DNA of 64,000 nucleotides, from positions 159,154,001 through 159,218,000 of the forward strand of contig OX597816.1 in the NCBI GenBank assembly GCA_951406725.2, in the 5' to 3' direction. Shown in pieces: positions 3,120 through 51,249 of this stretch (positions within the stretch are counted from its first letter, which is position 1; the number at the start of each line of letters is the position of its first letter). A program made the position numbers and the translations under genes. A model generated the notes under the pieces. It was not told where the DNA came from. It was given only the letters and a program-made list of their open reading frames with translations, and ran no database searches. Source of the stretch: Octopus vulgaris. Its lineage: Eukaryota.

Positions 3120-3302
3120 TTTGCTCAACAACAGACATCAAGAGGAATATAAAAGAAATGTCGCAAAAAATATGCTTCCTTGGCACAGCTAGAATCATTA
3201 GGAAAGTATTAGATGGTTGAAAACAACAAATAGCATGGTACTGTAGGCTGCAAGTAGAAAGCCCGCTACGCATGAATGACTCTAGGAGTTCCGACAAAAC
3301 CG
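3120..3302 (+). mobile_element. R4/Dong-like (RLE clade) non-LTR retrotransposon 3' end fragment
   Basis: Translates ..QKICFLGTARIIRKVLDG*, the conserved C-terminus of R4-type ORFs; the same 3' UTR occurs inverted at 51130-51234. Confidence 0.7.
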
Positions 3303-9835: not shown

Positions 9836-10014
9836 GAGCTTATATTAAGCGCAATCATCCTATCCGCCACTCATCAAACAAGATGACTCAGTAAATGGCA
9901 CTCCTGCTGATAAATCTATCACATTAGCTACCCATTTGGCATCTGACTCTACGTTGCAACACACACACACACACACACACACACATTCGCACGCATACTA
10001 CTACTACTAATTAT

Positions 10015-10546
10015 TATTCTTTCATTAGCCACAAGGGCTCACATACAATAACATTAAAGGCCATGCAACAACATAAAAACGGAGCGATACAATAGGTTTT
10101 CCGCGTGTGAACAATATAAATTAACAATTAAAATTGAACAAATTAAAACTCCCAATAGGGGAAGCGCTTTAACCCTTTAGTGTTCAGATTACTCGGTTAA
10201 ATGTAATACTTTTCCACTCAAATGTTTTGAATTAATCATGCATTATCTTATATCTTTGAGGTTTCAATGATGTGATTGTTTATATTTAGAATGACATTGT
10301 CGGGTAGGTGTGAGAGGCCAGATATTGCCAGTTTGAATATAAAACAAGTAGAATATCTGGGCCAGATATGGCCGGTTTAAACACTAAAGGGTTAAGGTAC
10401 TCGTGGAAAACCTAGAAAAGCCACGGGTGCCTGATCAACAGGGTAAGAGCCCGTCTCCTTTAATTCTCTTTTTATAGGTGCACGCTCAGAATTGGTTCTA
10501 TCACGCTGGCCATTCTTCCAACATTCACCCACCTTTCAACAAACTT
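10015..10546 (-). mobile_element. L1/Tx1-like LINE 3' end (ORF2 C-terminus + 3' UTR)
   Basis: Minus strand KFVERWVNVGRMASVIEPILSVHL* (10546-10472); UTR ends CCCTTGTGGCTAATGAAAGAA; UTR similar to 51250-51447. Confidence 0.6.
10173..10391. mobile_element. piggyBac-like MITE
   Basis: TTAA|CCCTTTAGTGTT ... AACACTAAAGGG|TTAA: 12-bp TIRs with TTAA TSD. Confidence 0.85.
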
Positions 10547-10809
10547 GCTATAATAATTGGTGCGTTGGGAACAGTAATCTGAGGAATAGACAGATGGCTG
10601 AAGGGGATTGAAACAGACTGCCTGGTAGAGCTCCTACAGAAAGTTTGCCTCTTAGGGGCAGCAAGGATTATCAGGAGGGTTCTAAGCACTTGAAAGACTA
10701 CTGGAAACGTGTGCATACCTAAGGTTACAGGTAGTAACCCGCAACCTCATAAATCCTACCAGGAATAAGACCAAACCTGAACTTTGTTTCTATAATAATG
10801 ATGATGATG

Positions 10810-15157: not shown

Positions 15158-15425
15158 CACGCACACACACACACACACACAAAGATAAATTGATAGATAC
15201 AACTGAGTGGGCAAACAAAAATATGAGACACAGCCTAGTGCTTTTTTATGTTGATTAGTTTGTTCCTGTGAAACCAGTAAGTTTTGTGGATGTAAATAAA
15301 TGAACAGCAGTTGTGAAGCAGTGATGAGGGCGAAACACAGACACAAAGACACACACATACACTTACATATATGCATATATATACGATTGATTTGTTTCAG
15401 TTCCTGTCTACGAAATCCATATATA

Positions 15426-18160
15426 TTGTTGTTGGCATCCTTTTTGTCACGAGAGACAATGGAGTTGCGCATCAAATAATCTAGTCCGGCTTTTACATTT
15501 CATGTCCTAATACATCTCCTGCTGTGGATGTGTAGTCCTATCCAGTACAAACACTTCCTCTGGCAGGTGCCGCAAATGTAGCGAAGACTTTGCCTGGCTG
15601 GTTGTAATGTCATACTTTCTTATTGACGTCTTTTCTTGTCTTTCTATTTCTCCTCTCCCTCTATGTCACTCCTTTGTGTTCCCTCTTTTACGGTAGGTTG
15701 CCAATCTCTACGGTTGCTGGCAACTACTTCCCAGTTGGTAATATTGATGTTGCAGGCATTCATGTCCCTTTTGCAAACATCCTTGTATCGTAAGAACGGT
15801 CTTCCCACAGACCTAGAGCCCCTAGCAAGCTCTCCGTTGAGTATGTTGTTGGGGATTCTGCCATATTCCATACGGCTAACATGTCGAAGCCATCTCATAC
15901 GTCTTTCTGTGAGGAGTGTAAACATGCTTGGTATTCCTGCTTGCTTGAGGACATCTTTGTTGGGGACATGATTCTGCCATTTAATGCGAAGGATTTTCCG
16001 GAGGCAGCGCAGGTGAAAGATATTTAGGCGACGTATGGCGTCGTATGGCGTGTGTATGGCGTCCAAGTCTCACTTCCATACAGTAGATTGCTAAGTACAC
16101 ATGCTCGGAAAATCTTCAATTTTGTGGTCTTGGTCAGCTTATTGTTGTCCCATGCCCGTTTGGAGAGTTGGGCCATCACAGCAGCTGTCTTGCCAATGCG
16201 TATATTGAGCTCAGTATCAAGGGATAGGTTGTAGGTGACGGTAGAGCCAAGATAGGTAAACTTCTCCACCTCCTGTAGTCTGTGGTCTCCAATATGTATG
16301 TTTGGGATAGTCGATGTCACCTGGCCCATGATGTTGGTCTTCTCGAGGCTGATAAATAAGCCAAAGTTGCCACATGCTTGCTCAAAACAGTTGATTAGCC
16401 TTTGTAGGGCTTCTTCTGTGTGTGATACCAGAGCGGCATCATCAGCAAATAGCATCTCCTTGATGAGGACGCTTCTGATTTTGGTCTTGGCACGCAAACG
16501 CGAGAGATTGAACAGTTTCCCATCACTTCTACTGTGCAGAAACACTCCATCATCTGATGTCACAAAGGCATGTGACTGCAATGGCGAGAAGAAGATGCCA
16601 AATAATGTAGGAGCAAGGACACAACCTTGCTTTACCCCATTTTTTATTTGGAAGGCGGCTGATGTTGAACCATTGTGCTGTATGGTGCCTTGCATATCAT
16701 CATGGAAAGATGTGATGATCCTCAGCAGCTTTGGTGGACGTCCGATTTTTTGGAGCATGATGAAGAGGCCTTTTCTACTTACCAAGTCAACGGCCTTTGT
16801 CAGATCAATGAAGGCCATATATAATGGCATTTTCTGCTCTCTGAACTTCTCCTGAAGTTGGCGTATGGAGAATATCATGTCAATAGTTGATCTGCTTCTT
16901 CTAAAGCCACACTGCGATTCTGGATAAATTCGAGAAGCAAGCAGTTGCAGCCTGGACAGGATAATGCGAGCAGAGGTCTTTCCAACAGTGCTTAGAAGAG
17001 ATATTCCACGGTAATTGTTACAATCACCACGGTCACCTCTGTTTTTGTAAACCGTAATGATGTTAGCATCCCGCATATCTTGAAGGACTGTACCCTCCTC
17101 TCAACACTGACACAGAAGCTCATGAATGTGCCGAAGCAGGATGGTGTTTTTGCCGGTTTTGATGATCTCAAATGGGATGCCGTCTTTTTCCGGAGCCTTG
17201 TTACTTGCTAGGGAGTCAATAGCCTTGGTGAGCTCTGCTATAGATGGCAGACTGTCAAGTTCACACATGACTGGCAAGATCTTGACACCCTCGATTGCAG
17301 CCTCAGCTACCGTGGTCTCTCGTGAGTAGAGATGCTGGTAGTACTCCACCCATCTATCCATTTGCTTGCTTTGGTCCTTGATGAGATCCCCAGTAGTTGA
17401 TTTCAGAGAGGCTGACTTGGATGCGGATGGACCGAGGGCCTTCTTCAAACCGGCATACATCCCACGGGTGTCGCCACTGTCAGCAGCTGACTGGATACTC
17501 TGACAGATTTCCTGCCAATACCTATTTGCACAGCGTCTGGCAGTCAGTTGGGTTTTATTTCTTGCCTTTCTGAGTTCTTCGAGTGACTTTATAGAAGAAT
17601 CACTCTTGTATTACATCAGAGCTGCACGCTTTGTTTCGATAAGTGTTTCCAGCTCTGAGAGCCCAGCACTGAACAAAATCTGGGTTTTGCCTTTCTCTCA
17701 TGCTGAAAGTATCTATTGATGTGGTATACAAAGCTTCCCTGATATAATTCCACCTACTTTCAGCAGAGGGGTTTGGGCAGCTACTGAGGGCAACTTTGAT
17801 AGAAACAGCAAAACATTGTCGCAGTGTAGGGTCGGGGGTTCTGGCAGTGTTAATGCGTGGTCGGCCCATTTTCTTGGAGTGATGGACTTTTTAGGCAGAA
17901 TCCTCACCCTGCTTCTTATTAGTGAATGATCTGTGTCACAATCCGCGCTGTGGTAACTACGAGTCAGTTGAACAGAATTCAGAAAGGGTCTTCGTGTAAT
18001 GATGAGATCCAGCTGATGCCAGTGGTGAGATCTTGGATGTCTCCAAGATTCCTTATGGGATGTCTTGTTGGCAAAGAATGTGTTAGTGATGCACAGGTTA
18101 TGGTATGTGCAAAATTCAAGTAGTCTCTGGCCATTGTCATTCATGTTGCCAATACCAAAA
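15426..18160 (-). mobile_element. RTE-clade (BovB/RTE-1-like) LINE, 5'-truncated, frameshifted APE+RT ORF
   Basis: APE motifs (NDNGQRLLEFC, TNTFF, HQLDLII, DCDTDH); RT motifs (NYRGISLLS, QCGFR, FIDLTKA, GVKQGCVLAPTLF, LFADD, FTYLGS, LLYGSETW); C-terminus CLRKILRIKW..; 3' end GGATGCCAACAACAA. Confidence 0.96.
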
Positions 18161-18229
18161 CACGCATACACTTACATATATACATACATATATATACGAT
18201 CGATTTGTTTCAGTTCCTGTCTGCAGAAT

Positions 18230-18282
<53 letters not shown>

Positions 18283-18780
18283 TACACATACATACATACA
18301 TATATATTTGGAATTTACAAAAGAAACGAACAAAAGACGAAGACGGGTGTGTAAACAGCAAACAGGTTTATTAGTTTAACGCTCCGGACTTAGGAATATT
18401 TATATAGGGAGTACTACTAATTTTAAAATTAGATATAGGGGACACAAGAATTCATTTATTCACCCCTATATAAAAAATTACTGACATTTTAGTATGTTGT
18501 AAGCATAAATATTTAGCGTCTTATAATTTTCTTAAACTTTAAAATATAATTTTTTAGAATACGGTCCAATTCCAATTAGATCATTAGATCCAATGAACAC
18601 TTATGCACAAACCTGTAATCTTAAATTATTTTTTTTTTAGTAGTACATTGGAATATTCCAATTGGCTATTATTTGCATGATTAACTAAAGTTAACCTTTC
18701 AATGATTTTCATTTCTTATTTAAACGTGGTATTCCTCTTGAAATCGTCAGGACCTGATATAATGCTGTCACTTATTCATT

Positions 18781-20406
18781 TCGAAGTCGTGAGTTAAATT
18801 TTGTTACTGCGTTGCACGTTAGTTTTGTTGAGCGTTTTTTGTTGTGCGGTTACACGGTATTTGTCTGTCTGTGTCGAGACGGACAGGGACGGCCCCTCCC
18901 TGATGGGAGAGACGGCATGAGTGTTCGAGACCCTATCGGACTTGTCTGCGTCTGAGGAGGAGTTGGAGGAAGCGGTGGAAGGAATGGACCGGAAATTGGG
19001 TGATGCTTGTGCTGGAGTGGCCGGGGAGTCGGAGGAGAGAGAGTTGGACTTGGCCGGGCTGCCAAGTTGCCAGAAGTTTGTCAGGAAGGAGGGCGGTGAG
19101 GTGGAGTTGGCACCGCCACCAAGGCGTAGAGAATGGTACGAGGTGGGGACCATTGCATACAGGGTCTATGTGGGCGGAAGGAGAGGGGTCGAAGTGGTGA
19201 ATGTGGAATGGATGGAGGGGGCTCTGAGAAGAGCGGAGGAGGGGATAGCATTTCTGACAGGAGGTGTAAGCTGCGGTGCTATGGTGGTGCAGTTCGGGAG
19301 TGAAAATGTAGCAAGAAGGATGGCGGCGAGGGCAGTGAAGTCTGAGAGGGTGTTCCTGTTGCCCTCGTACCTAAACAGGAAGACCACTAGAATAGGGGTG
19401 GGTGGAGGGAGTGTCCCCAAGTGTCGAAGCTGAATGGATTGTGGCGGCTATGATTGGCGGTCGTGAGAAGGAGGTGGACATCCTCCACGCCACGGTGAAG
19501 ATCGAGGGCTGGAGGGGCGCAACGCTGGACTTGAATGTGCAAGCGGAGGATGAAGTGCTGGAGAACCTGACGGGGAATATCAGAGTGGGAGGCGTGATCA
19601 TGAGAGTGTGGGTCGAGGGCAGAGCTCCACGCTGTTACAAGTGTGGCCTGCGAGGGCACATAAGAGCTAACTGCCCTCCCCCAGAGAAAAATATGGATGC
19701 GGAACCACAAAGAGAGGCGGAAAAAGAGCAGAAACCAGAAGAGAAAGAGACAACAGAAGAAGAAGAGGCTTCAAAAGAATGGGAAGAAGCCAGGAAAAAG
19801 AGGAAGAGAAGAATAAGAGGAAAAGCAAACAGTACGGAACCCCAATCCACCCCAACACCACCCACACCCTCTGAGTCCCACCCTCTACCTGCAGACAGTG
19901 AACCCGCCCGCTCCCCTCCAACAAGAAAACAGAAAAGAAAAGACACACAAGATACAAAAAATGAACCCCGGCCCAACATTGTATGTATGACAGGAAAGGA
20001 AAAGATTAAAAAGACGATGGAAGAATATCAATGGTGTGACAGAGGACCGATCAGATATGCAGTAATTGGAAAAGAACGAATGGACGAGTTTATGGTAATG
20101 TGTGAAAGGGAGGATTGGGAAGTAAGTGAAGTGAGAATGGTCGAAAAAATCATGAGGGATTTGGAAGAGACGTTTGAGAGAAGAATGGAGATGGATGGAT
20201 TTTGTATAGGAACTGAACAAGGAGCATTTGTGTGGGATTAATAACTAAAGGACAGGTAAGTGATGCTAACGGATGGGGCCGTTAGCATCACTTTCATAAT
20301 ATCATTTTCAAAATTCATCTTTCATATCTATGTATCTGTGATGTTCTATGTCCCCAATGTCTTGTAGTGTCCCCTCTGTGTGGCCCCTAGTGGGCAATAA
20401 AGAAAA
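18781..20406 (+). mobile_element. ORF1/gag-only non-autonomous non-LTR retroelement (HAL1-like architecture)
   Basis: Flanked by TGCTGTCACTTATTCATT (18763-18780 / 20416-20433); single interrupted ORF with CX2CX4HX4C; no RT/EN; ends GTGGGCAATAAAGAAAA. Confidence 0.8.
18903..20241 (+). pseudogene. Disrupted L1/Tx1-type ORF1 (gag-like, CCHC zinc knuckle), ~444 aa when repaired
   Basis: ATG 18903 in frame with TGA 18918 and ORF 18921; 4-nt GGTG duplication near 19400 shifts into ORF 19402-20241; CYKCGLRGHIRANC at 19633-19674; basic RKKRKRR motif. Confidence 0.8.
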
Positions 20407-20653
20407 GTCAGTACCTGCTGTCACTTATTCATTGATACTCAAAAACTGAACTTTCACCAACTGAATACTCACCATGTAGTACCTTACTGCTTTTTGTTGG
20501 ATTTTACCTCGAGAAAGGAGGGCTGAATTTCGAATACTTCGTACAACCACTTTTCTGAAACGGCTGCAGGTTAGGGAAAAAATTTTAATCGCCTCTTTCA
20601 ATTTAGGTTTTTATTTTTCATGTTTATATTCGTATTTCATGGTTATGTTTATA

Positions 20654-21217
20654 TTGGGTTGTCTGGAAAGTTCGTGCCGATTTTTAAAGGAAAGTAAAGG
20701 TCACTAAATACTTGCCATTACATTTTTAATGAACCAAATCTGAACCATTTCGTTGCACAATACGTCTCCATCTTTCCTTAACCTTGAAAATACCCTCTTC
20801 CCAGAATTGGGGTGATTTCAAGGCAAAGAATTCGTCAAGGTATCTTTTTATGTCATCTAAGGAATTGAAATCTTTACCATTAAGACTTTTCTGCAGAGAC
20901 CTGAATAAGTGGAAATCCGAAGGAGTAATATCTGGGGGATAGGGAGGGGGGTAACACATCCCAGCCGAGCTGCAGCAATTTTTGTCTGGTTCCCAAAGCA
21001 TCAAGTGCCGAAAATGAACTTTCTTATCTTGCATTTTAAATGGGTTACAGAATTAACACAGGTTATAGGAACATAAACCTTCTTCCACGAAAAGATAGCT
21101 TAAACTGTGCTCTAAATGGATGTGTAGTCAAATCCTATTTTATGGACTCAAACATGTTCTAAAATAAGTCGAAAGATAAGCTACTATAAATCGGCACGAA
21201 CTTTCCGGACAACCCAA
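20654..21217 (-). mobile_element. Internally deleted mariner element
   Basis: TA|TTGGGTTGTCTGGAAAGTTCGTGCCGATTT ... AAATCGGCACGAACTTTCCGGACAACCCAA|TA; ORF fuses the N-terminus (HFRHLMLWE) to PPYPPDITPSDFHLFRSLQ. Confidence 0.93.
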
Positions 21218-21619
21218 TATTTCTATTTTTATCATGAAACTCTTAACATAAATATTTGTATATTCGTATGTGCTACATCTGAATTTTCTTGTCTGAATGT
21301 TTTAAGACAAATATCCGAAATTTTTATCGTATACCACATTTTATTAATACTTAGCTCATATACAGAGACAAAAATGTTGTACTATATACTGCAGGTTATC
21401 TCCATTAACTTTTTGCTGTAATATACGATTTTTGCTCTCGTGACTGGACTAAGGCTACGTTGTTTTACCATTATTAATAAATTGTATAATAACATTAAAT
21501 TATAACTTTATATGGTGCATTTAGGTTCGTTGTGTGACCACCCATTTTGGCCAAAAAAATTGCATACATATTACATGGTCTTAAACTAATTTTGCCGGTA
21601 AATTTGAAACGTTTATATT

Positions 21620-24555: not shown

Positions 24556-25399
24556 TATATATAATCTATGATATTCTAGTGGGTTTCAAGTTTATAACAC
24601 CTTGATATTTCATGTTATCTCATTTTATATGCCTAAGACGTTTATTTTCTATTCTGGTTTTTATATATTTCTATACATTATATTTGTATCTATAATTTAT
24701 TTTAAGCCGAAACATAATACGATCCTTGTACAAACGAAAGAACAAGAATGTCCTCTGGAACTTTTATCTTCCACCGGTGTTTGTAATCGATGGTGACATG
24801 TACGATGATTTTGCGACTGTCTTATATTTTACAGAGAAATTGGAAGCCCCGAATGTAAGCCACCACTTTATGCATAATACAATATTTATAGTTCTCTATT
24901 TCTAACTCAAACTCTGTCCTCAATAATTATAGATCTCTATGTCTAAATGTAATTCTTTTTCGTCTCGTTTAGTTTATAACTATAACACGCGTTCTTGGTT
25001 GTCTCTTGACAAAGCTTTTTTTCTCCAGCGTTCACCACTTTACCTCGTTTGGGTTAAACAGCCCTTACCGAATGTTTTCACTGTCCTGTTTTTGTTAGCA
25101 GCTTTGACGTTCCACGTATCTCAAATTTTATTTAATTTGCTTTCGGGGAGCAATTGCTTTGACGAAGACGCATCTTGTTGCACTGCTCGCAATGCGGAGT
25201 AGGTAAATCTGCCAACAATTAAGGAAGGGTTGTTCTTTTATGCTGCCTTCGCGCTATAGTTCTCAATATATAATGGAACCCAACCCAACCCTATACAGTC
25301 GCCTCTACGTCGTCCACAGCGAGCTCTGGTCGCCGTAGCGTCGACTGTGGGTCGGTAGCTGTGTACAGTCGACCCACAGCCCATGGAGAACTAGCCCGT

Positions 25400-26066
25400 A
25401 GATATAGAAAATCTCTGAAGGAGACCGTCAGATCATAACTATGTAGGACGTACCCCTTTGAGAATACCATATGCACCAATGATAACTGCATGGTATGTAG
25501 GGTTAGCCCTGGCATTAACTGTAGAACTAGAAATGTAGTTTACAGCATAAGATGCATAGAAGGTGCTTGTAAAGACATGAACATGACGTACATAAGGGAG
25601 ACATCTAGGAGCATTGCGAAACGACTAAATGAACATCTGAGACAATATGACGACAATAAACAGTCCTCCATACTCTACCAACATGCCAAAGACCACCATG
25701 GAGGCAACTTGGGTCAACTTGGCATCCACATCTTATCCAAGCACCCAAAAGACCCAACACTCAGACAAATACCTATTTCTTTATTACCCACAAGGGGCTA
25801 AACATAGAGGGGACAAACAAGGACAGGCATAGGTATTAAGTCGATTACATCGATCCCAGTGCGTAACTGGTACTTAATTTATCGACCCCGAAAGGATGAA
25901 AGGCAAAGTCGACCTCGGCAGAATTTGAACTCGCAACGTAACGGCAGACGAAATACCAGTAAGCATTTCGCCCGGCGTGCTAACGTCTCTGCCAGCTCAC
26001 AGACAAATACCGGAGTGCGTCCTTATAAATGAAACTTCCCCAGTACTAAATAGGAAATATACATAG
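25400..26066 (+). mobile_element. Penelope-like element GIY-YIG endonuclease remnant, split by a SINE
   Basis: CMVC..NCRTRNVVYSIRC..C..TYIRETSRSIAKRLNEH..YQH..H; frame resumes after the SINE as RQIPECVLINETSPVLN. Confidence 0.8.
25774..25999 (-). mobile_element. SINE family A, near full length, 12-bp TSD
   Basis: TSD CAGACAAATACC at 25762-25773 and 26000-26011. Confidence 0.93.
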
Positions 26067-40163: not shown

Positions 40164-42005
40164 TAATAAGAAAACCATATAATAATTAACATACACGCGT
40201 AGATCAGCCACCAAAGTAAATTTGTTCACGTAGACCACACGGAAAGTAGCACTAACACAAAATAAACTAAAAACCAACCTAAAGTAATCTCCCTTTAAAT
40301 TGTGGATCACACGGCAAAGTGACGCGTGTGAATTTAGAGCTGGTTTCTTGTAAAAATGTAACTGCCTTCTGGTTTCTTGTAAAAATGCAATTACCTTCGT
40401 CTCGTCGCTGATCACATTGTAAAAAATCTTTAGCCAACATCTTACAGGTTTTTAGAAATTGAAAAGTAAACTAAAAAGTAATCTCCCTTGTAGATCACAC
40501 GACAAAGTAGCACCCTTTTCACTATAGGCGCAAGGTCTGAAATTTTGCAGGTAGGGACTAGTCGACTGTATTGACTTCAGTGCTCGACTGATACTTATTT
40601 GATCGACCTCGTAAGGATGAAAGGCAAACTCTGATCGTAAACCCGGAAAAAATGCTGCCGAGCATTTTGTCCAACGTGCTAACGACTCTGCCAACACGTC
40701 GCCTTCATCTGTTTATAAATATAGCATGTCATTTAGCTTCGGATCAGCTCTGTTCAACTAGACGAATATTTAAAGGTATTTCTGTTGAGGAATAGGCCTT
40801 GGACCTTTTCTAAATAATACGCGAACTGAATGCCATGGTCTGCCATTGACCCATGAAAGCATGGAAAATGATGGTGGTGATGACGATGATGATGATGATG
40901 ATGATGATGATCAGTTGCTGTCTTTTGTTTTATCTATTGTTATCATTTTATAAATTTTCTTTTCTATTTTTATTTATTTATTTATTTTTGCTTACCTAAT
41001 ACGTTGATGGAAATGGTGGATACACGGGGAAACTTTTATATGTAGGATGTGCAATATACAGGCAGGCAGGGAATAAATGTGAAAAACAAAATCAAAAACT
41101 CAAAAGTGAGCCATTACAAAAAGAATTTGGCGATTATATTATTCAACGTGTTCTTCGTTTTATAAAAACAGTGCGTATGACTTGAGGAAATATTGACTGC
41201 TTTTTCTAGCAAGATGAGTTACTACATAGAGCAGGCGCATGGGTAACGTTTTTGCGAGAAACGGGCTGCATAAGACGTGGAGTAGAAAGTCCCGCAAGTT
41301 GGCCATGACTGACATAAAAGCACCTCCGTTGGTTTAAAATATAGTGTGTATCTAGATCCAATGAGGAAGAAGGTCAGATGGACAATACAGAGTCATTAGT
41401 AATTAGGAAATAAATTAACCATTCACCCAATAATTAATGTAAGGTAGACAACCTTCTACTATTATGTCAAGGTGACGAGAAAAAAAACTGTTTTGCGGTA
41501 TTTGTTGCGACTCTTTACGTTGTGATTTCAAACCCCGCCTAAGTTACTTTGCCGTTCATCCCTCCGGGGTCGGTATAGTAATATAAAGCACCAATCTAAG
41601 TACTAGTGTTGATGGTATCGACTAATCCCGCCCTTCAGAATTGCTAGCCTTGTGCCTAAATCAGAAACTATTAAAAGCTGCGAGTTGGCAGGATCGTTAG
41701 ATTGTCAGATGAAATACCGTGCAGCATTTTTCTTGTTTCTTCTTGTTTTGAGTTCAATTCTCACCGGAGTCAACTTTGCCTTTCATCCCACCGAGATCGA
41801 TGATATCAACTAACCCCGCTCTCCTCGGAATTAACGGCTTGTGTTTATATTTGAAATAATTTTTATAAAAAGCTCTCCACAACTTTCGTTCTTTTAAGGT
41901 GAAGGGATATGAAATTAATGGTGTAGCATAGCCACGGGTGAAATTCCTCTCACCCATTTATTATATATACGTGCATTCCAACGTAGCAAGAAACAGCTAG
42001 CCTTT

Positions 42006-42424
42006 TCTAAGGTGGCGAGCTGGCAGAATCGTTAATACGCCGGACGAAATGTTCAGCGGTATTTCGTCTGCCGTTATGTTCTGAGTTCAAATTCCGCCGA
42101 GGTCGACTTTGCCTTTCATCCTTTCGGGGTCGATTAAATAAGTACCAGTTACGCACTGGGGTCGATATAATCGACTTAATCCGTTTGTCTGTCCTTGCTT
42201 GTCCTCTCTGTGTTTAGCCCCTTGTGGGCAATAAAGAAATATGTATTTCGTCTGCCGCTACGTTCTGAGTTCAAATACTGCCGAGGTCGACTGTGACATT
42301 CATCCTTTCAGGGTCGATAAATTAAGTACCAATTATGCACTGGGGTCGATGTAATCGACTTAATCCCTTTGTCTGTCCTTGTTTGTCCCCTCTATGTTTA
42401 GCTCCTTGTGGGCAATAAAGAAAT
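42006..42424 (+). mobile_element. Dimeric SINE family A with 18-bp TSD
   Basis: TSD AAGAAACAGCTAGCCTTT (41988-42005 / 42425-42442); the 3' ~180 nt are present twice. Confidence 0.93.
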
Positions 42425-43210
42425 AAGAAACAGCTAGCCTTTGGCCGCTATTTGGATCACGTTGTGTCCACTATTCTGATTGGTTGGCATTGGCGCAATT
42501 TGTTCCCTACTCGGTTGTGCCAACTTGCTGCGGACAACTAGTCAGAGGCACTAATTAGGATCACGTGGAACAACCTGTTTACTACTCTGTTTTAACCTAG
42601 TTCCTTATAAAAACTCAGCTTTTCTTCGCTTCGGGTCTTTGTTTCTAGACATTATAGGTCTAGCCACCGAAGGCGAAGACACAGCCAGTTCCAGCGACAA
42701 CACTATTACCAAAGTAGCTACGTTGAGACTTACCAACTTCGTCACCATGATATTCAACAGTATTGCAGCAACCTCCTTCTTCGTCGCCACTATCATGTCC
42801 TTCTTAATGTCGTCAACATTATCTCTCTACGTACACAGCTTAGCAAGAAATTCACCCAGGTTCCAACAGTTCACTGTTCGTGAAGTATTTCACAGCGAAT
42901 ATACAACCTGCATTAACTGTACCAAGTGACCCAGGCAGCAGCATCACAGCCACTTCACGTACTACATGTACCTGTAACCGGCTCAGCATTATAGCCATGA
43001 CTCCTTGATACAGTATTTCAACTACCGTGTACGATTGATTACGAACTGGTATTATTATCTTTCTTGTGGCTATGAACTTACGTCTCACTTCGATGGCTCA
43101 TGGACACCTTCACTCTCTTCTTTTTATTGCCATCCTTATCTGTACTTAACACGCATACATCTATGCATACACACACACATACATTTTGTTCTTATCAATT
43201 TATCAATTTA

Positions 43211-43598: not shown

Positions 43599-45290
43599 AA
43601 TTTTGTATACATGACACGCACACAGACACACGTTATCATATCAATAACTGTTATCTTAATCATTCTTACGCGGTTGTGTCTCTTTCCATCTAGCATTTAC
43701 TTGTTCTATTTAATTTCTCTTTTGTAACGGCTGTGTGATGTGGTACAAAAGAGCCATTCTCGTTATCTCATATCACATGGTCCTTACAATGGGTTTGCTT
43801 CTAATTCCAGGCTACCAAAAATGTAATTAGGATGCGTATTGTCCCAACAGCTTTAAATACACACCGATAACACTCTGTATACATATATATTCATTCACAG
43901 TTATTATTAATTCATTAACGACAATTCTTGTCACGGAAGACAAGGAAAAGAATTTAGGAATTTGAATTTATAAAATGAACACTGTGCCACTAGAACAAAC
44001 GATAAATAAAATAAGTACATGTGACCTGAATAAATCTAAGAACTGATGTTTAGAATAGAAGTCACTTTTCTTCATTAACATATTTTATGAATTTTTAATA
44101 AGTAGCGCAAATAGTAGTTGTTTCGTTTCAGATCAGTCCTGATCGCGAAGGTCTTTGATCAAAGCAGTTCGTGAAAGTCGAGCAACTTTGTAGAGGCTCA
44201 TTTGGACAGCGCAGTTCATGATATACAAAATACGAGATGATCACGGCTAAAGCATCTTTGAACATAAACAGCCCAGGATGGGGCAAAAAAATACAATAAT
44301 GTAATTCCCAGTATGTCATGTGTGCGAGTCGGGGTTTCATTTCCTAATCGAAGCTACCAACACTTACGTAGCGAAGACATAGAACATTTAGAAGCAACAA
44401 AAATACTTTGCACAGCAATAATAATCAAGAGGATGTTATCTGTTTTCCTATGGAACATTTAACATGCAGTCATTCAGCTTATCAGAAATGGCTTTGTAGT
44501 GAAGAAGTTCGTTTCGGGTTCAATTCCTTTGGACAGGTGTTTCTACATAGCTCGGAGCTGACCAATAAGTCATGAGTGAATTTGGTTGACAGAAACTGTA
44601 ACGAATTCCATGTGTTTGTATGTTCGTATTTTTCTTCGTCAATGAATGTGTTCGCTGATTGTAAACAAAGACCTATCTATTCAAACAGACGGTGACCTTT
44701 GCAAGAATTTCACCTCAAAAATATATCCGGGCTCTTTGACATATTGCGCAATCATTGTAAACAAAAGGCTCATTCAAACGGCATTAGCTGCAATTCTCTG
44801 CGTAGCGATACCTGGACTGTCCACTGTTTAACAGAAAGGAGTGAATTATTTAATTGTTTGAGAGTTGACATCAGGAGGGGCATCTGGCCGTAAAAGACTC
44901 TACTCCAGTGCATTCTTGTTTGACGCATGCAAACATGGAAAAGAGGTTGTTAAATCGATAAGGGTGACGTCTCTACCCCGACAAACGTATAAAGAAAAAT
45001 TGGATAGCAACGTCTTTACTATCATTTTTACCTTCAACGCAACAATCTCCCTTACCATCTCTATGGATCTTCCTCGCACCAACGTAAGGATTAACTTTGA
45101 CTCTTAACGAACCAACAAAAATTTATGTTGGAAACGTGAATAGTCTAATTGGTAAAGTACTCGGCTACTAACTGAAAGATCTGCAGTTCATTTCTTGTGA
45201 CTTTCACTGCATTGTCTTTCCTAAAGACATTTCATTTTCAACCGCCAAGTATTATTCAACAAGTAGTTTTTCAACAGCCGAGTATTATAT

Positions 45291-45355
45291 TAGGTTGTCC
45301 GGAAAGTTCGTGCCGATTTATAGTAGCTTACCTTTCGGCTTATTTTAGAACATAT
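45291..45355. mobile_element. Solo terminal fragment of the mariner at 20654-21217
   Basis: TAGGTTGTCCGGAAAGTTCGTGCCGATTTATAGTAGCTTA is the reverse complement of ~21177-21217. Confidence 0.85.
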
Positions 45356-45418
45356 TGTTTATTCTTGGTTTCTTATTATTATTTACTAAGACATCAATGA
45401 AACATGGCTTTATTATTA

Positions 45419-47293: not shown

Positions 47294-50200
47294 GTTTTAA
47301 CATCAGTCTTTATACATTATTCCACGGAAGATATGGACGTGTGGTCTGCTCTGATCATAAATAGCCACAAAAGCAGAGAATGACGATGAATTTATTAAAA
47401 AATCTCAGTGTAAGAGAACATTGGGATACCTGTTTATAAATGTAGCATGATTCAGTAAACCTAAGATAGCAGCCGGAGAGAGGGACAGAGAGGGAGAGAG
47501 AGAGAGAGAGAGAGAAAGAAAGAGAGTGAGAGAAAGAAAGAGAGAGAGAGTGAGAGAAAGAAAGAGAGAGTGAGAGAAAGAAAGAGAGAGAGAGTGTCTG
47601 TGTGTGTCTGTGTGTGTACTAAAACGTGATAGATTCTATAATTCACCTCAGTATCTACGGTCAGCTAAAATAGTTGATTCCTTCCGTTCGCAATATTGTC
47701 TTTATATTCTGACAGAAGAAGGCAATAACAAACAAACGTAAGGATACAGCCAAAGAAAACGGCAAATAAGTGTATATAAGTAAAAAAGTATACTGGGTTA
47801 TGTCCATGTTTAATAAACATATACTTCGTCTCACTGCCAAATTAGACCTCGTGTTTAAATCGCGAGGCTTTCAGCAGCTTGGAATGAATATCGAACTATC
47901 TAGTTTCATCTTTCTTAAAGCTCATCAGCGATCGCTTACCTTTGCTTTCCAAAATGCTGGCAGAAAGTGCCGATGAACTGGTTACTAAATATATAAACAA
48001 TATTATGAATTGCATGACTGATTTATATGGTGGTACTTTGATAACTAGAGTACCAAATACAGCGTGGGTTATGAATTCATATGAAGTCGTGTATTGATGT
48101 GGTTAATAAGTATGGTGTTCAATACCTGAATATAGGTATGTGGGTGAGCATCTCTTAAAGAACTGAGATTATTTCAAATTGAAGCAATTTCACATAATCC
48201 GTTCAAATAAACGTGAAAGGTATGAACGTCATAGCAGTGACTTCTTTTAACATCCCCATCCAATGAAACCAAAAGGGTTGTTGGTGATTTAGCAATAATA
48301 CAGCAGCTACACCTTGGCTCACGTCTTTTAACAGCACCAGATAATACAGCCACGCTTGAACACCAACCAAACTCATTATTAAATTGTAACAGGATGAAAG
48401 GTCTGTAACACTGGTGCATCCCTTACATTAAATTATTTGTCGAAGGAAAAGCACATGCGGGCTGAAGACCTCCAAAATGGCATCACTACAAAATATTTCC
48501 ATGTTCAGCCACTCAAAAACTGCACAAGGAAGAGAGGGATTTAAAATACAAGTTTTATGTTTTCTACTCCCACCATTTCCTTGACTCATTCCTTCTATCA
48601 AACGCTCGAAACATAATAGGGATAATCTAAAAGCTCATAAAGTTTCAGGGCCTAAAACATCTAATTGTGATGAGTATTTCTTAAGCATTCGGCCATGCCA
48701 CGAAATAGACTTCAACCGGAATCGGAAACGTTGTTACAGTCTCCGTTGTCCCGGTGAAAGGTGTCAAATACTTTGTATGGTACGAAACAGAAAACGGAAT
48801 GCTGTGATTTTCATGACTTTCCAAAATGCATTTTTAGCATATTTGATGTGAATTGAATTTATTTGTAATTCAAAACGGCATTGCAGTCGTGGTGATCAGA
48901 AGTTTAACCTTAAATCAGACATTGTCCTTAGCTAATAAAATATAACCAGTAACTCCGGTAACTGAGCAGTCCAATCTGAGCGATGCTTTTATAGCGACAG
49001 CACATTTGGGTTGTTTTATAAGCCTATATCTGGGTGGGGAGGGCAAGGGCAGGAGTGAGATAGGGGTTGAAACAAACCCATTGGCTGCCTCGGGTGGCAC
49101 ACACTATAGCAACACAACTGAATAAATCCCGAGGAAATTTCACCTCTTATAAATGTCCTTATATCAGGTATATGCAAATGAGGCGTTTGTTTCTTAAAAT
49201 AGCAATTTATGTATCATACTTAATGCATATACACAGTTGATAGACCAGTTACTGCAGTATTTGTCTTGAGATCTTATAGTGATGCAGCGTTAAAAAACAA
49301 TAAGTATAAGAGGAAGACGAAAATTTATCCCAGCATCGGTCAGGAAGAGAACCAGGTACACTTCAGCACTTTTGGACCTTTTCGAATTTTGTCTTCCTCT
49401 GACATTTACTGTATTTTTGACATAATACGTCCATACGGGATCTTACATCAGAGCAAATACTGAGGTAGCCGGCCTATCAGCGGTGTGTATACATTAAATA
49501 TGATACGTGGATGGCTTTCCTGTTTGTGGATGTTCACAGCATTGTATTATTATGATAAAAATTCCGATTATGTCTTTGATTTTCTTCCGTAGCAAAGATT
49601 GTTAAAATTGCAACACTTTTTTTTTCTGCTGAGGGAAGAGCGAATCCCATGCAAGCCCTCTCTGGGTCAATGAGCTTGATATTGTTAATGCTGTGTTTAA
49701 AATTTCAGGTCAACATCGACAAAAAAAAACATGAAAGAAAATTCCAAGGGGACGATTTCCTGGTGTTCTGTAAAAGGAGAATGAGCAAAAGTAATCGGTA
49801 CGATACAAAGGCTGGGGGTGTTGGACGGGACAAGGGTGACGAGAGATGGAAAGACGTGTGGGTCAGAAAACGTGAGCGGTGGAGATACGTGACCAGCCAG
49901 CTCTAAAGGAACAAAAGCCATTATAGCAGCGATAAAAAAATATTTAAAAAAAACAATGAAGACTTGTTTCACTGTGTAAAAAATTTCAATTTTGTCTCTA
50001 ATGTCATTTCATAGTTAAGTTTGCGTAACACTCGAACAAATGCAGTGACAGGCCGAATAATATCGTAGATGATTATTCATGTTGGCTCTTTAGGACAAAA
50101 TTGAACTGAAGGAAATTGATCCATATATTATTATTATTATTGTTGTTGTTGTTGTTGTCTTTGCACAGCTTCTAACGCTGGAGATGTACTACGGTGTCAG

Positions 50201-50297
50201 CTGTTCAGTACTAGTGAACTAAGGTAACACCCCTTATTATTATTATTATTAATATTATCATCATCATCATCATTTATTCACTTAAACCTCTCCCGAT

Positions 50298-50790
50298 TTA
50301 TCTATGTCTATATCTCATCTCAGCTCCATCCTGCAGCAACACTTTCCTCAACACATGAGTTGTTCCATATATTGCGGCCATCTGAACACTTCCTAAAAAG
50401 TTTGGTATTTGCTGCTTTTGATGCCAGAGTATTTCTCTCTTTGAGATGGTCCCAAATGCACCGATCACAACAGGTACCACATTCACTTTTGAGGCGCTAT
50501 AGATTCTTTTCACTTCCAATTCTAGGTCTTGGTGCTTCTCGACTTTTCCATCCTCTGTCATAACAGGTTTTTGGTCCGCATGTATAGCTACGTCGATGCA
50601 GGTCCATTCTGTGGACTCCTTCCGTAAGAGAGGATCGGTTATGTTGCAGCTTCTTGTCTTTGTATATTGGTATATCCCAAGTGAGTTTCACCTGATCATT
50701 CTCTGCTACTGGCGAAGGTTGGTGCTCATACCACTTTCTGGGACATTCCAGCCCATTCTCCTTGCACAATTCCCAGTGTTACTTTATCAT
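50298..50790 (-). mobile_element. R4/Dong-like restriction-like endonuclease region and 3' end
   Basis: KWYEHQP..ENDQVKLTWD..HNR..; EKHQDLELEVKR..VVPVVIGAFGTI..AIYGTTHVLRKVL. Confidence 0.88.
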
Positions 50791-50878
50791 GGCATTTTTT
50801 TTTTTTTACTCCAATTGGGTTAGTTTTGAGCAACAACTAATTATATGTTTGACTGTGATTATTATTATCAGTATTATC

Positions 50879-51092: not shown

Positions 51093-51249
51093 ATGATTAT
51101 TGTTTTATTATAATTATTTCTCTTTATCACAGGTTTTGTTGGAGCTCCTGGAGTCTTGCATGAATAGAAGGGCTTGCTACCTGCAGCCTGCTGTACCATG
51201 CTATCCGTTCTTTTCAGCTATCTAATACTTTCCTATTATTACTATTATT

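What the first reader, a model, noticed from the sequence alone, without database searches (positions are those of the whole stretch)
18781..20406. ORF1(gag)-only retroelement sharing its 3' end with a SINE and a LINE: a putative three-member mobilisation system
Seen: a complete 1.63-kb unit with an 18-bp perfect TSD (extending imperfectly to GTCAG.ACCTG), ~120-nt 5' UTR, one ORF of ~444 aa after repairing one stop and one 4-nt duplication, a CX2CX4HX4C knuckle, no EN/RT, and only ~165 nt of 3' UTR. Its terminus TGTCCCCTCTGTGTGGCCCCTAGTGGGCAATAAAGAAA closely matches the SINE A tail TGTCCCCTCTATGTTTAGCTCCTTGTGGGCAATAAAGAAA (42384-42423) and, more briefly, the LINE ends at 10015 and 51447. The element's end can form a GCCC-loop-GGGC mini-hairpin before AATAAA, as can several SINE and LINE ends. 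Established: SINEs borrow LINE 3' ends; ORF1-only elements exist (mammalian HAL1, Drosophila HeT-A). Inference: a HAL1-like family that supplies its own RNA-binding protein but uses a Tx1/L1-like RT, with stringent 3' recognition, which is atypical for L1-clade partners. I do not know of a description in cephalopods but cannot verify novelty.
Basis: partly seen in the sequence, partly recalled or inferred. Interest (0 to 1): 0.8.

Follow-up and report, generated by a model that had tools for sequence, protein, structure and literature searches.

The report
Octopus ORF1-only parasitic retroelement family
This is a repeated 1.6-kb octopus retroelement that encodes only a predicted RNA-binding protein and likely borrows the reverse transcriptase of a still unidentified LINE through a short hairpin tail that it shares with an abundant SINE; this copy also carries clustered A-to-G changes that may be a fossil of RNA editing.

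Summary
Unit 18781-20406 holds a broken 444-codon ORF1 (predicted tandem RRMs plus a CCHC knuckle) and no EN/RT. Contigs from four public runs show paralogues mostly 82-93% alike. They lack this copy's frameshift and cross the ORF-stop/3'UTR junction. A sister subfamily in O. vulgaris gene models joins the same UTR. A one-off deletion or a ZCCHC pseudogene is unlikely.

The tail shared with SINE A is real (0 of 2000 shuffles). The two LINE ends share only the terminal stem-loop, which covaries. The autonomous partner is therefore NOT identified, and its Tx1/L1 identity is inferred.

(1) a perfect 15-bp hairpin after the stop;
(2) the element sits in a Penelope-like repeat, and other copies start at the same site (target specificity or hitchhiking, unresolved);
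(3) 19 of 23 listed transitions are sense-strand A-to-G, mostly non-synonymous and in ADAR-like context. One amino-acid-only test did not support this.

ORF1-only LINEs are known (HAL1, HeT-A, Ag-Sponge). This is a new variant in cephalopods as far as my searches reach.

The parts
18383..18780 (+). Left part of the host repeat, likely the 3' region of a Penelope-like element (degenerate GIY-YIG peptide at 18383-18463)
   Evidence: Pfam GIY-YIG E=0.005, below cut-off; deep repeat coverage and empty-site joints 18743 to 20416-20434 in all four runs (tables 2 and 5)
18763..18780 (+). Left target-site copy (18 bp exact; imperfect extension back to 18746)
18781..18902 (+). 5' UTR, 122 nt, GT-rich; internal promoter inferred, untested
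   Evidence: sequence; paralogous contigs cover it (table 8, records 2, 17, 25, 26)
18903..20241 (+). ORF1, 444 codons; broken in this copy by a stop at 18918-18920 and a 4-nt duplication near 19398
   Evidence: paralogues crossing 19398 are 4 nt shorter (table 8)
19152..19370 (+). Predicted RRM 1 (by alignment to a folded relative)
   Evidence: alignment; model of P0056; Foldseek
19383..19620 (+). Predicted RRM 2
   Evidence: model of P0001, pLDDT 87-96 over residues 1-80; RRM-fold matches
19633..19674 (+). CX2CX4HX4C zinc knuckle
19969..20175 (+). Small C-terminal alpha/beta region shared with the sister subfamily; function unknown
   Evidence: pLDDT mostly 57-83
20258..20293 (+). Perfect 15-bp hairpin with a 6-nt loop, just after the stop; overlaps a GGTAAGT splice-donor-like site
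   Evidence: 3' UTR z = -3.07; the only non-simple perfect stem of 11 bp or more with a 3-10-nt loop in the window
20358..20405 (+). Tail shared with SINE A
   Evidence: (0 of 2000 shuffles)
20383..20401 (+). Terminal 4-bp stem with 5-nt loop (20383-20395) and AATAAA (20396-20401); predicted RT recognition signal
20407..20433 (+). Right target-site copy (9 nt imperfect plus 18 bp exact)
20434..20650 (+). Right part of the host repeat, ended by a mariner-like insertion at 20651
   Evidence: tables 5 and 7
42006..42424 (+). SINE A example (full unit plus a partial tandem unit) with an 18-bp TSD at 41988-42005 and 42425-42442
10012..10555 (-). 5'-truncated LINE-like end: about 26 C-terminal codons and a 3' UTR interrupted by a short insertion; same terminal loop
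51255..51448 (+). Second 5'-truncated end of the same LINE-like type, 3' UTR only

Best explanation
The unit is one dead copy of a multi-copy octopus family that encodes only an ORF1 protein (predicted RRM-RRM-CCHC) and is likely mobilised in trans by an unidentified, probably Tx1/L1-type LINE, whose reverse transcriptase would recognise the short terminal stem-loop and AATAAA tail that SINE A also carries. Steps: (1) Pol II transcription from the 5' UTR (inferred). (2) The element's own ORF1p is made and coats the RNA (inferred from frame conservation among paralogues). (3) The partner's ORF2p binds the 3' stem-loop, nicks the target and primes reverse transcription, giving long TSDs and frequent 5' truncation (TSD and 3'-rising coverage shown; mechanism from established LINE biology). 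(4) This subfamily likely prefers one site in a Penelope-like repeat, as some Tx1 elements prefer other transposons (about 50%). (5) The RNA that founded this copy or its immediate lineage was possibly A-to-I hyper-edited before it was copied (about 50%). The 15-bp hairpin after the stop is most likely a second RNA-level signal for packaging or 3' processing (untested).
For: Family: 5368, 5182, 2917 and 430 contigs were laid in four runs of four studies, mostly 90-95% alike (table 1). Junction: paralogue records cross the stop into the hairpin (X13 r13, r14; X2 r24; X8 r32; 7-15% substituted), and X13 r15 runs from the hairpin to AATAAAG (20275-20403, 11 differences). Mid-UTR depth at 20313 and 20327 equals or exceeds ORF C-terminal depth in X1, X2 and X8; in X13 it is lower. 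Sister subfamily: loose ends joining at 20247 in X2 and X13 encode the C-terminus found 18 times in 15 of the 128 proteins then held; 5 of them end exactly there, and 8 are named O. vulgaris models. No ORF2 link: 0 of 106 relatives scanned carry an EN or RT Pfam domain. Frame: 15 of 20 listed in-ORF paralogue records keep frame despite 7-19% substitution. Fold: tandem RRM, best Foldseek hit Sxl RRM1-2, E=1.1e-5; an Atlas look-alike cluster carries ZCCHC3 RBD1/RBD2 + CCHC (score 0.90). [quoted passage not shown] Shared machinery: SINE A TSDs of 18 bp and about 23 bp; stem covariation, 0 of 500 shuffles reach the score, while slid controls pair 23-50% against 93%. Rough depth ratio is about 5-8 at the 5' end and 20-36 at the ORF end in X1, X2 and X8 (the tool warns depth is not copy number).
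Against: No laid contig spans the whole unit, so full-length phasing comes from tiling; table 8 shows only 32 of 13,963 records and table 7 only 30 of 852 loose ends. Summed depth falls about 2- to 5-fold from the hairpin bin to the next bin in all four runs (table 2), so some hairpin-bearing copies could continue into another sequence, even ORF2. ORF1 and ORF2 are separate frames, so the lack of EN/RT in ORF1 proteins is weak evidence. The partner was not found. The LINE ends match only weakly. RRM+CCHC ORF1s also occur in CR1/L2 elements. The covariation rests on 4 pairs in related sequences and on a structure chosen from them. Records from different runs are partly the same loci, so they are not independent; 4 of the 5 frameshifted records look like one event.
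Confidence: 0.72

Rival explanations
1. Hitchhiking: one old insertion into an active Penelope-like element was amplified as cargo of that element, so the shared flank reflects duplication and not target choice.
For: Paralogue contigs carry the same left flank: X1 r2 (18662-18944), X2 r17 (18649-19055), X8 r25 and r26 (from 18767). Flank and body are similarly diverged. Penelope copying would also give a 3'-rising depth. Kojima 2015 had to exclude the same rival for SINEU-3 (PMC4494074, parts 2-3 read).
Against: The window's left and right target copies share GTCAG, while the r2/r17 paralogue and the empty-site contigs read otherwise there (tables 3 and 5c). That suggests the duplication was made at this locus, but it rests on 2 letters. 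Frame conservation implies the ORF was under its own selection. Sister gene models are joined to varied unrelated sequences.
Confidence: 0.12
2. The partner is not Tx1/L1 but a CR1/L2/Jockey-group LINE with an RRM+CCHC ORF1, for which stringent stem-loop recognition is ordinary.
For: All ORF1 types occur in CR1/L2 (PMC5203782). Ag-Sponge is a CR1-derived ORF1-only element (PMC5786205). No RT could be linked.
Against: TSDs of 18-23 bp or more, an AATAAA/A-rich end, the ZCCHC3-like look-alike and an F..RW-like C-terminus in the 10015 remnant fit Tx1/L1 better (the clade traits here are recalled, not tested).
Confidence: 0.2
3. Chimeric origin of the tail: an ORF1-bearing 5' half captured its last ~50 nt from a SINE A insertion instead of inheriting them from a common LINE. 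This is compatible with the family being real.
For: The tail is much closer to SINE A (score 52) than to either LINE end (22, 25), and the rest of the UTR matches neither.
Against: An unseen LINE could be the common donor; the sister subfamily shares the UTR start (table 7).
Confidence: 0.25
4. One-off internal deletion of a full LINE at this locus.
For: Loose ends behind the hairpin may be among the 822 rows not shown.
Against: Diverged paralogues share the stop-hairpin and hairpin-tail junctions (table 8).
Confidence: 0.04
5. Processed pseudogene of a host ZCCHC-type gene.
For: An Atlas look-alike cluster is ZCCHC3-like; the unit has a polyA signal and a TSD.
Against: Dozens of divergent relatives at about 25-52% identity; those named are Octopus hypothetical or uncharacterised models, several fused to unrelated transposon or host pieces. 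A SINE-shared structured tail is not expected for a host mRNA.
Confidence: 0.03
6. For the A-to-G skew only: it is ordinary subfamily divergence in a purine-rich coding region, not ADAR editing.
For: The amino-acid-only test gave P0002 2 A>G-type against 4 G>A-type changes, and P0001 3 against 0. The 25 rows inside the element were the tool's 'best supported', with 474 rows unseen. Whole-stretch tallies are raised in both directions (G>A 0.17, A>G 0.13 per base in X1).
Against: 19 of 23 listed transitions are window G / others A (P=1.5e-6 against base frequency). 5' U is enriched (6 of 19, P=0.004) and 5' G depleted (3 of 19, P=0.015). 15 of these 19 are non-synonymous against 1 of the 6 other rows (Fisher P=0.012). 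SINE A copies in the window are strand-symmetric (A>G 0.018, T>C 0.022, G>A 0.069, C>T 0.073). The codon-aware test gave 8 A>G of 12 transition-explained changes. RRM1-region G+R+V+A is 0.47 in the window and 0.49 in P0053, against 0.18-0.27 in seven relatives.
Confidence: 0.45

Closest known systems
HAL1 (half-L1), mammals
   Same: Non-autonomous, encodes ORF1p only, L1-clade derived (PMC5753468, passages; PMC5786205, passages).
   Different: Mammalian L1 ORF1p is Type II (coiled coil-RRM-CTD) and L1 recognises poly(A). This element has a predicted Type I tandem-RRM + CCHC ORF1, a structured tail shared with a SINE, and no long poly(A).
HeT-A (Jockey clade, Drosophila) and Ag-Sponge (CR1 clade, Anopheles recalled)
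   Same: ORF1-present bipartite non-autonomous LINEs whose protein is thought to multimerise with the partner's (PMC5786205).
   Different: Other clades and hosts. HeT-A is telomeric with a long UTR (recalled); this unit is interstitial and has a 165-nt UTR.
Tx1-clade elements that target other transposons (Xenopus Tx1 in Tx1D; crocodilian Tx1-Mar and SINEU in Mariner-N4_AMi)
   Same: Insertion at a fixed site of another repeat, with non-autonomous riders sharing the target (PMC4494074).
   Different: The targets reported there are DNA transposons, LTR elements, microsatellites and RNA genes, not a Penelope-like element. The riders are SINEs without an ORF, and no shared tail with the LINE was found for SINEU-1. 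Specificity here is suggested, not proven.
Stringent-type SINE/LINE pairs (L1-clade examples in maize/sorghum and Chlamydomonas; eel UnaL2)
   Same: Shared 3' end with a covarying stem-loop (PMC3747384).
   Different: Here an ORF1-only element shares the tail too, and the LINE is not identified.
Octopus tRNA-derived SINEs (OR1/OR2/OK, Ohshima and Okada 1994)
   Same: SINE A has A-box- and B-box-like motifs by eye and is abundant in the window (23 BLAST hits including the element's own tail). OR2 is cited as an Octopus CORE SINE (PMC4758252, passage).
   Different: Identity of SINE A with OR1 or OR2 was not tested; the 1994 paper was not seen.

Membership tests
ORF1-present non-autonomous LINE (HAL1-like kind) | Encodes an ORF1p-type protein | tested here: met
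   Predicted tandem RRM + CCHC
ORF1-present non-autonomous LINE (HAL1-like kind) | No EN/RT between ORF1 and the 3' end | tested here: met
   165-nt UTR; no domain found
ORF1-present non-autonomous LINE (HAL1-like kind) | Multiple copies share the short structure | tested here: met
   Paralogue contigs tile stop-hairpin-tail; phasing over the full length not shown
ORF1-present non-autonomous LINE (HAL1-like kind) | TPRT hallmarks (TSD, A-rich end, 5' truncation) | tested here: met
   TSD and AATAAAGAAAA; depth rises towards the 3' end (rough)
ORF1-present non-autonomous LINE (HAL1-like kind) | Copies inserted independently with distinct TSDs | tested here: inconclusive
   Several copies share the left flank; right junctions not seen
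HAL1 proper | Type II (Transposase_22) ORF1p from mammalian L1 | tested here: not met
   No Transposase_22 in the window pieces or 106 relatives; the predicted architecture is RRM-RRM-CCHC, i.e. Type I
Tx1 clade (partner) | RT phylogeny within Tx1 | not testable with these tools
   No ORF2 linked; no genome held
Tx1 clade (partner) | Type I ORF1 (RRM + CCHC) | tested here: met
   the feature is not exclusive to Tx1
Tx1 clade (partner) | Target-site preference | tested here: inconclusive
   At least 2 further loci start at the same host site; hitchhiking not excluded
Stringent-type LINE/SINE system | Shared 3' sequence with a covarying stem-loop | tested here: met
   (element-SINE strong; LINE ends weak by sequence)
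Stringent-type LINE/SINE system | Stem required for mobilisation | not testable with these tools
   needs an assay
Penelope-like element (host repeat) | GIY-YIG endonuclease downstream of a PLE-type RT | tested here: inconclusive
   GIY-YIG fragment E=0.005, under cut-off; the RT part is not in the flank; no similarity to the other GIY-YIG remnant in the window
Host ZCCHC3-type gene or pseudogene | Single conserved intron-bearing parent gene | tested here: inconclusive
   No genome held; relatives are many, divergent and unnamed or hypothetical

The most novel reading that the evidence does not exclude
Octopus carries a three-tier retroelement system (autonomous Tx1-like LINE, ORF1-only rider, tRNA SINE) keyed to one covarying 3' stem-loop. 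The rider targets a fixed site in Penelope-like elements, and ADAR-hyper-edited RNAs of it were reverse-transcribed and fixed in the germ line. That would leave a DNA fossil record of cephalopod RNA editing acting on, and disabling, a transposon. The editing part alone is about 0.5 likely and the targeting part alone about 0.5.
Probability: 0.22. Interest if true: 0.8.

Novelty: new variant of a known kind. Interest (0 to 1): 0.52.

Why it matters
ORF1-only LINE derivatives were listed from three clades in the review I read (HAL1, HeT-A, Ag-Sponge; PMC5786205). A Type I-ORF1 example in a mollusc that shares a structured tail with a major SINE gives a natural test of what a LINE RT recognises and of why a rider keeps ORF1. 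It also gives a sequence key for finding the LINE that drives a SINE; SINEs make up 11.7% of the O. vulgaris genome (PMC13282606). If the A-to-G clusters are ADAR footprints, cephalopod editing reaches germ-line transposon RNA and becomes heritable, which can be tested genome-wide with existing assemblies.

Tried and rejected
No own genome was held, so no genome-wide BLAST, dN/dS or TSD census could be run.
Expression: no RNA holder is on record. X13 is only guessed to be RNA and its window-identical contig has low depth, so it gives no evidence on expression.
ORF1-ORF2 fusions of 1092-3115 aa: none found, weak evidence. C-terminal peptide of the 10015 LINE end: no candidate.
Metagenome and viral scans for the hairpin or the protein were empty.
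Rfam: two sub-threshold chance hits only. ARAGORN: no tRNA. PDB sequence search gave knuckles and low-complexity hits only. The C-terminal region had no usable Atlas hit and was barely tested by the fold searches.
The first pair count used a mis-set structure string and was discarded (corrected).
Considered and dropped: that the short frame after the stop is an ORF2 start (no EN motif by eye); that two-copy gene models (P0007, P0009, P0127) prove tandem arrays (they may be distant exons); that the neighbouring RTE-like LINE (about 15400-18200, minus strand) is the partner (its 3' end gave no match to the element's UTR); an LTR/gag origin (no LTRs; the fold is RRM, not capsid).
The window's own left junction is not seen in X1 or X2 at 18744; the tool says holes prove nothing.
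Earlier scan findings: none in 4 look-ups.
Literature searches that found no cephalopod ORF1-only family, no Penelope-targeted Tx1 element and no ADAR-edited genomic retroelement copies in octopus: (judged from listings plus the passages read). Bao and Jurka 2010 was not held. Repbase, Dfam and the Zenodo consensus library of PMC13282606 could not be seen and may already contain this family under an L1-Tx1 or Unknown label.

Full report
Host and setting. The named protein relatives of the ORF are Octopus models (O. sinensis 52% identity, O. vulgaris, O. bimaculoides), apart from one plant protein (P0083, E=2e-5) that the RRM-region profile did not recover. The window is therefore very likely octopus DNA. 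No whole genome is held, so family evidence comes from public contigs laid on 18450-20750 (4 of the 24 runs listed) and from protein collections.

Check of the observation. The 18-bp exact repeat is at 18763-18780 and 20416-20433. Nine bases lie between the AATAAAGAAAA end and the right copy and resemble 18746-18756. The ORF starts at 18903, has a stop at 18918-18920, changes frame near 19398 and ends at 20241: 444 codons if 4 nt are discounted. The UTRs are 122 and 165 nt. The knuckle is present and there is no EN or RT. Contigs with 0-1 differences cover the frameshift in X1 and X2, so it is real. Paralogues crossing it are 4 nt shorter (X1 r5, r7; X2 r20; with other indels in X2 r21 and X8 r30), so it is private to this copy.

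It is a family. Thousands of contigs were laid, most 90-95% alike (table 1). Of the 32 records shown out of 13,963, four paralogous ones cross the stop into the UTR and one runs from the hairpin to AATAAAG. Depth in the unique mid-UTR equals or exceeds that at the ORF end in three runs and is lower in X13. Rough ratios to single-locus depth are 5-8 at the 5' end and 20-36 at the ORF end in X1, X2 and X8, as expected from 5' truncation; the tool warns that this is not copy number. Fifteen of 20 listed in-ORF records keep frame at 7-19% substitution. Four of the five exceptions look like one +2 event, and records from different runs are partly the same loci. A sister subfamily joins the same UTR at 20247 (table 7). 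Its C-terminus occurs 18 times in 15 of 128 proteins held, and five end exactly at the stop that overlaps the hairpin. None of the 106 relatives scanned has an EN or RT domain; I left out of that scan 16 hits judged to be unrelated knuckle proteins. Against this: no contig spans the unit, depth drops 2- to 5-fold after the hairpin bin, and most loose ends were not shown.

The protein. AlphaFold2 on a relative (P0056, unnamed, 47-row alignment, mean pLDDT 82.9) gives two RRM-like domains before the knuckle. The best Foldseek hits are tandem-RRM proteins (Sxl, E=1.1e-5). VIA-align gives La RRM at Z 8.7 (rmsd 2.7, 81 aligned) and S6/ACT-like folds near Z 8 for the second domain. The window's own residues 1-78 of P0001 model as an RRM-like fold, with weak E-values. 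The Atlas lists mostly arthropod CCHC clusters and a ZCCHC3 RBD1/RBD2 cluster at 0.90-0.92. This is a Type I ORF1p, consistent with but not exclusive to Tx1 (PMC5203782, passages).

The 3' end. The last ~50 nt match SINE A far beyond chance (0 of 2000 shuffles). The two LINE-like ends match only over 21-27 columns (91 and 12 of 2000). All 11 ends aligned share a 4-bp stem around a 5-nt loop before AATAAA or a close variant: 41 of 44 cells pair, three pairs show double-sided changes, and slid controls pair 23-50%. With four pairs and related sequences this is supportive, not proof. SINE A copies have TSDs of 18 and about 23 bp where one could be found, in line with the element's. The 10015 remnant keeps about 26 C-terminal codons with an F..RW-like motif that I recall from Tx1 ORF2; a search with it found nothing. 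The partner is thus unidentified.

(a) A perfect 15-bp hairpin at 20258-20293, the only such non-simple stem in the window. It overlaps a splice-donor-like site at which many sister gene models switch to unrelated sequence. (b) The flanks are two halves of one repeat: contigs in all four runs join 18743 to 20416-20434, and a GIY-YIG-like peptide lies about 350 nt upstream (E=0.005), so the host is likely Penelope-like. Paralogues 11-16% diverged begin at the same site (X1 r2, X2 r17, X8 r25, r26). Tx1 elements and their riders are known to target other transposons, and hitchhiking is the standing rival (PMC4494074, parts 2-3 read). The window's two target copies share letters that the paralogue and the empty sites lack, a slight argument for independent insertion. 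(c) Of 25 listed differences inside the element, 19 are window G against A in other copies; all 14 between 19002 and 19203 are of this kind. The statistics: P=1.5e-6 against base frequency, 5' U enriched and 5' G depleted (the ADAR signature in PMC2873906, passages), 15 of 19 non-synonymous against 1 of 6 other rows, and a strand-symmetric SINE control. One unnamed relative, P0053, shows the same amino-acid skew. Against: the rows were selected by the tool, whole-stretch tallies are raised in both purine directions, and an amino-acid-only test did not reproduce the excess for the 5' piece. I put editing at about even odds.

Mechanism. Most likely the element is transcribed, makes its own ORF1p, and presents the terminal stem-loop to a partner ORF2p for target-primed reverse transcription. 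The structure, copy sharing, TSD and covariation are shown. Transcription, ORF1p function, partner identity and stem requirement are inferred.

Comparison and novelty. ORF1-present non-autonomous LINEs are known: HeT-A, HAL1 and Ag-Sponge (PMC5786205, passages; PMC5753468, passages). Stringent L1-clade pairs are known too (PMC3747384, passages). The element works like HAL1 but is not HAL1 (different ORF1 type). The O. vulgaris repeat annotation (PMC13282606, parts 1-2 of 3 and the supplement read) counts 80 L1-Tx1 families and does not mention ORF1-only ones in what I read. Marino et al. (PMC8967140, passages) has no ORF1 mention. PMC4758252 and PMC11203168 (passages) added nothing on this. 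Repbase, Dfam and the Zenodo library were not visible. Verdict: real family, new variant of a known kind, interest 0.52, with editing and targeting as the open, more surprising leads.

Noticed in passing
window 15400-18200, minus strand: 5'-truncated RTE-like LINE with EN remnant and RT (RVT_1 E=1e-30), several breaks, ending in short CAA repeats; head-to-head with the element but unrelated at the 3' end. The RTE label is recalled.
   Followed up: partly
window 42239, 55492, 25776, 11055 (SINE A ends): SINE A tails often run on into the SINE's own internal GGTATTTCGTC-like sequence, giving tandem partial units; this suggests a tandem master or self-targeting.
   Followed up: no
window 10500-10800 (+), 50100-50800 (-), 51130-51235 (-), 3200-3300 (+): 3' ends of Dong/R4-like elements with TAA-type tails, recognised from a recalled C-terminal motif.
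   Followed up: no
window 20651-21220: Internally deleted mariner-like element with terminal inverted repeats, inserted in the same host repeat; another end lies near 45287-45356.
   Followed up: no
window 10180-10395: A ~210-nt insertion with terminal inverted repeats (16 bp exact) inside the 3' UTR of the 10015 LINE-like end.
   Followed up: no
window 25300-25800: A second GIY-YIG remnant (E=0.04), likely another Penelope-like family; no similarity to the host repeat of the element.
   Followed up: partly
protein P0053 (unnamed Logan contig): ORF1 relative with the same G/R/V/A excess and K/I/T/N loss as the window copy (10 A>G-type against 3 G>A-type changes); a candidate second hyper-edited copy.
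   Followed up: partly
proteins P0016, P0024, P0105, P0029: Public gene models fuse pieces of this ORF1 family to a Helitron helicase, CFAP65, an SNF2 protein and an HTH_psq protein; probably annotation artefacts from nested insertions.
   Followed up: no
window 19605-19681 and 19836-19912: Very high summed contig depth over the knuckle and the Pro-rich block, pointing to a much larger related family that shares only these blocks at 80% or more.
   Followed up: no
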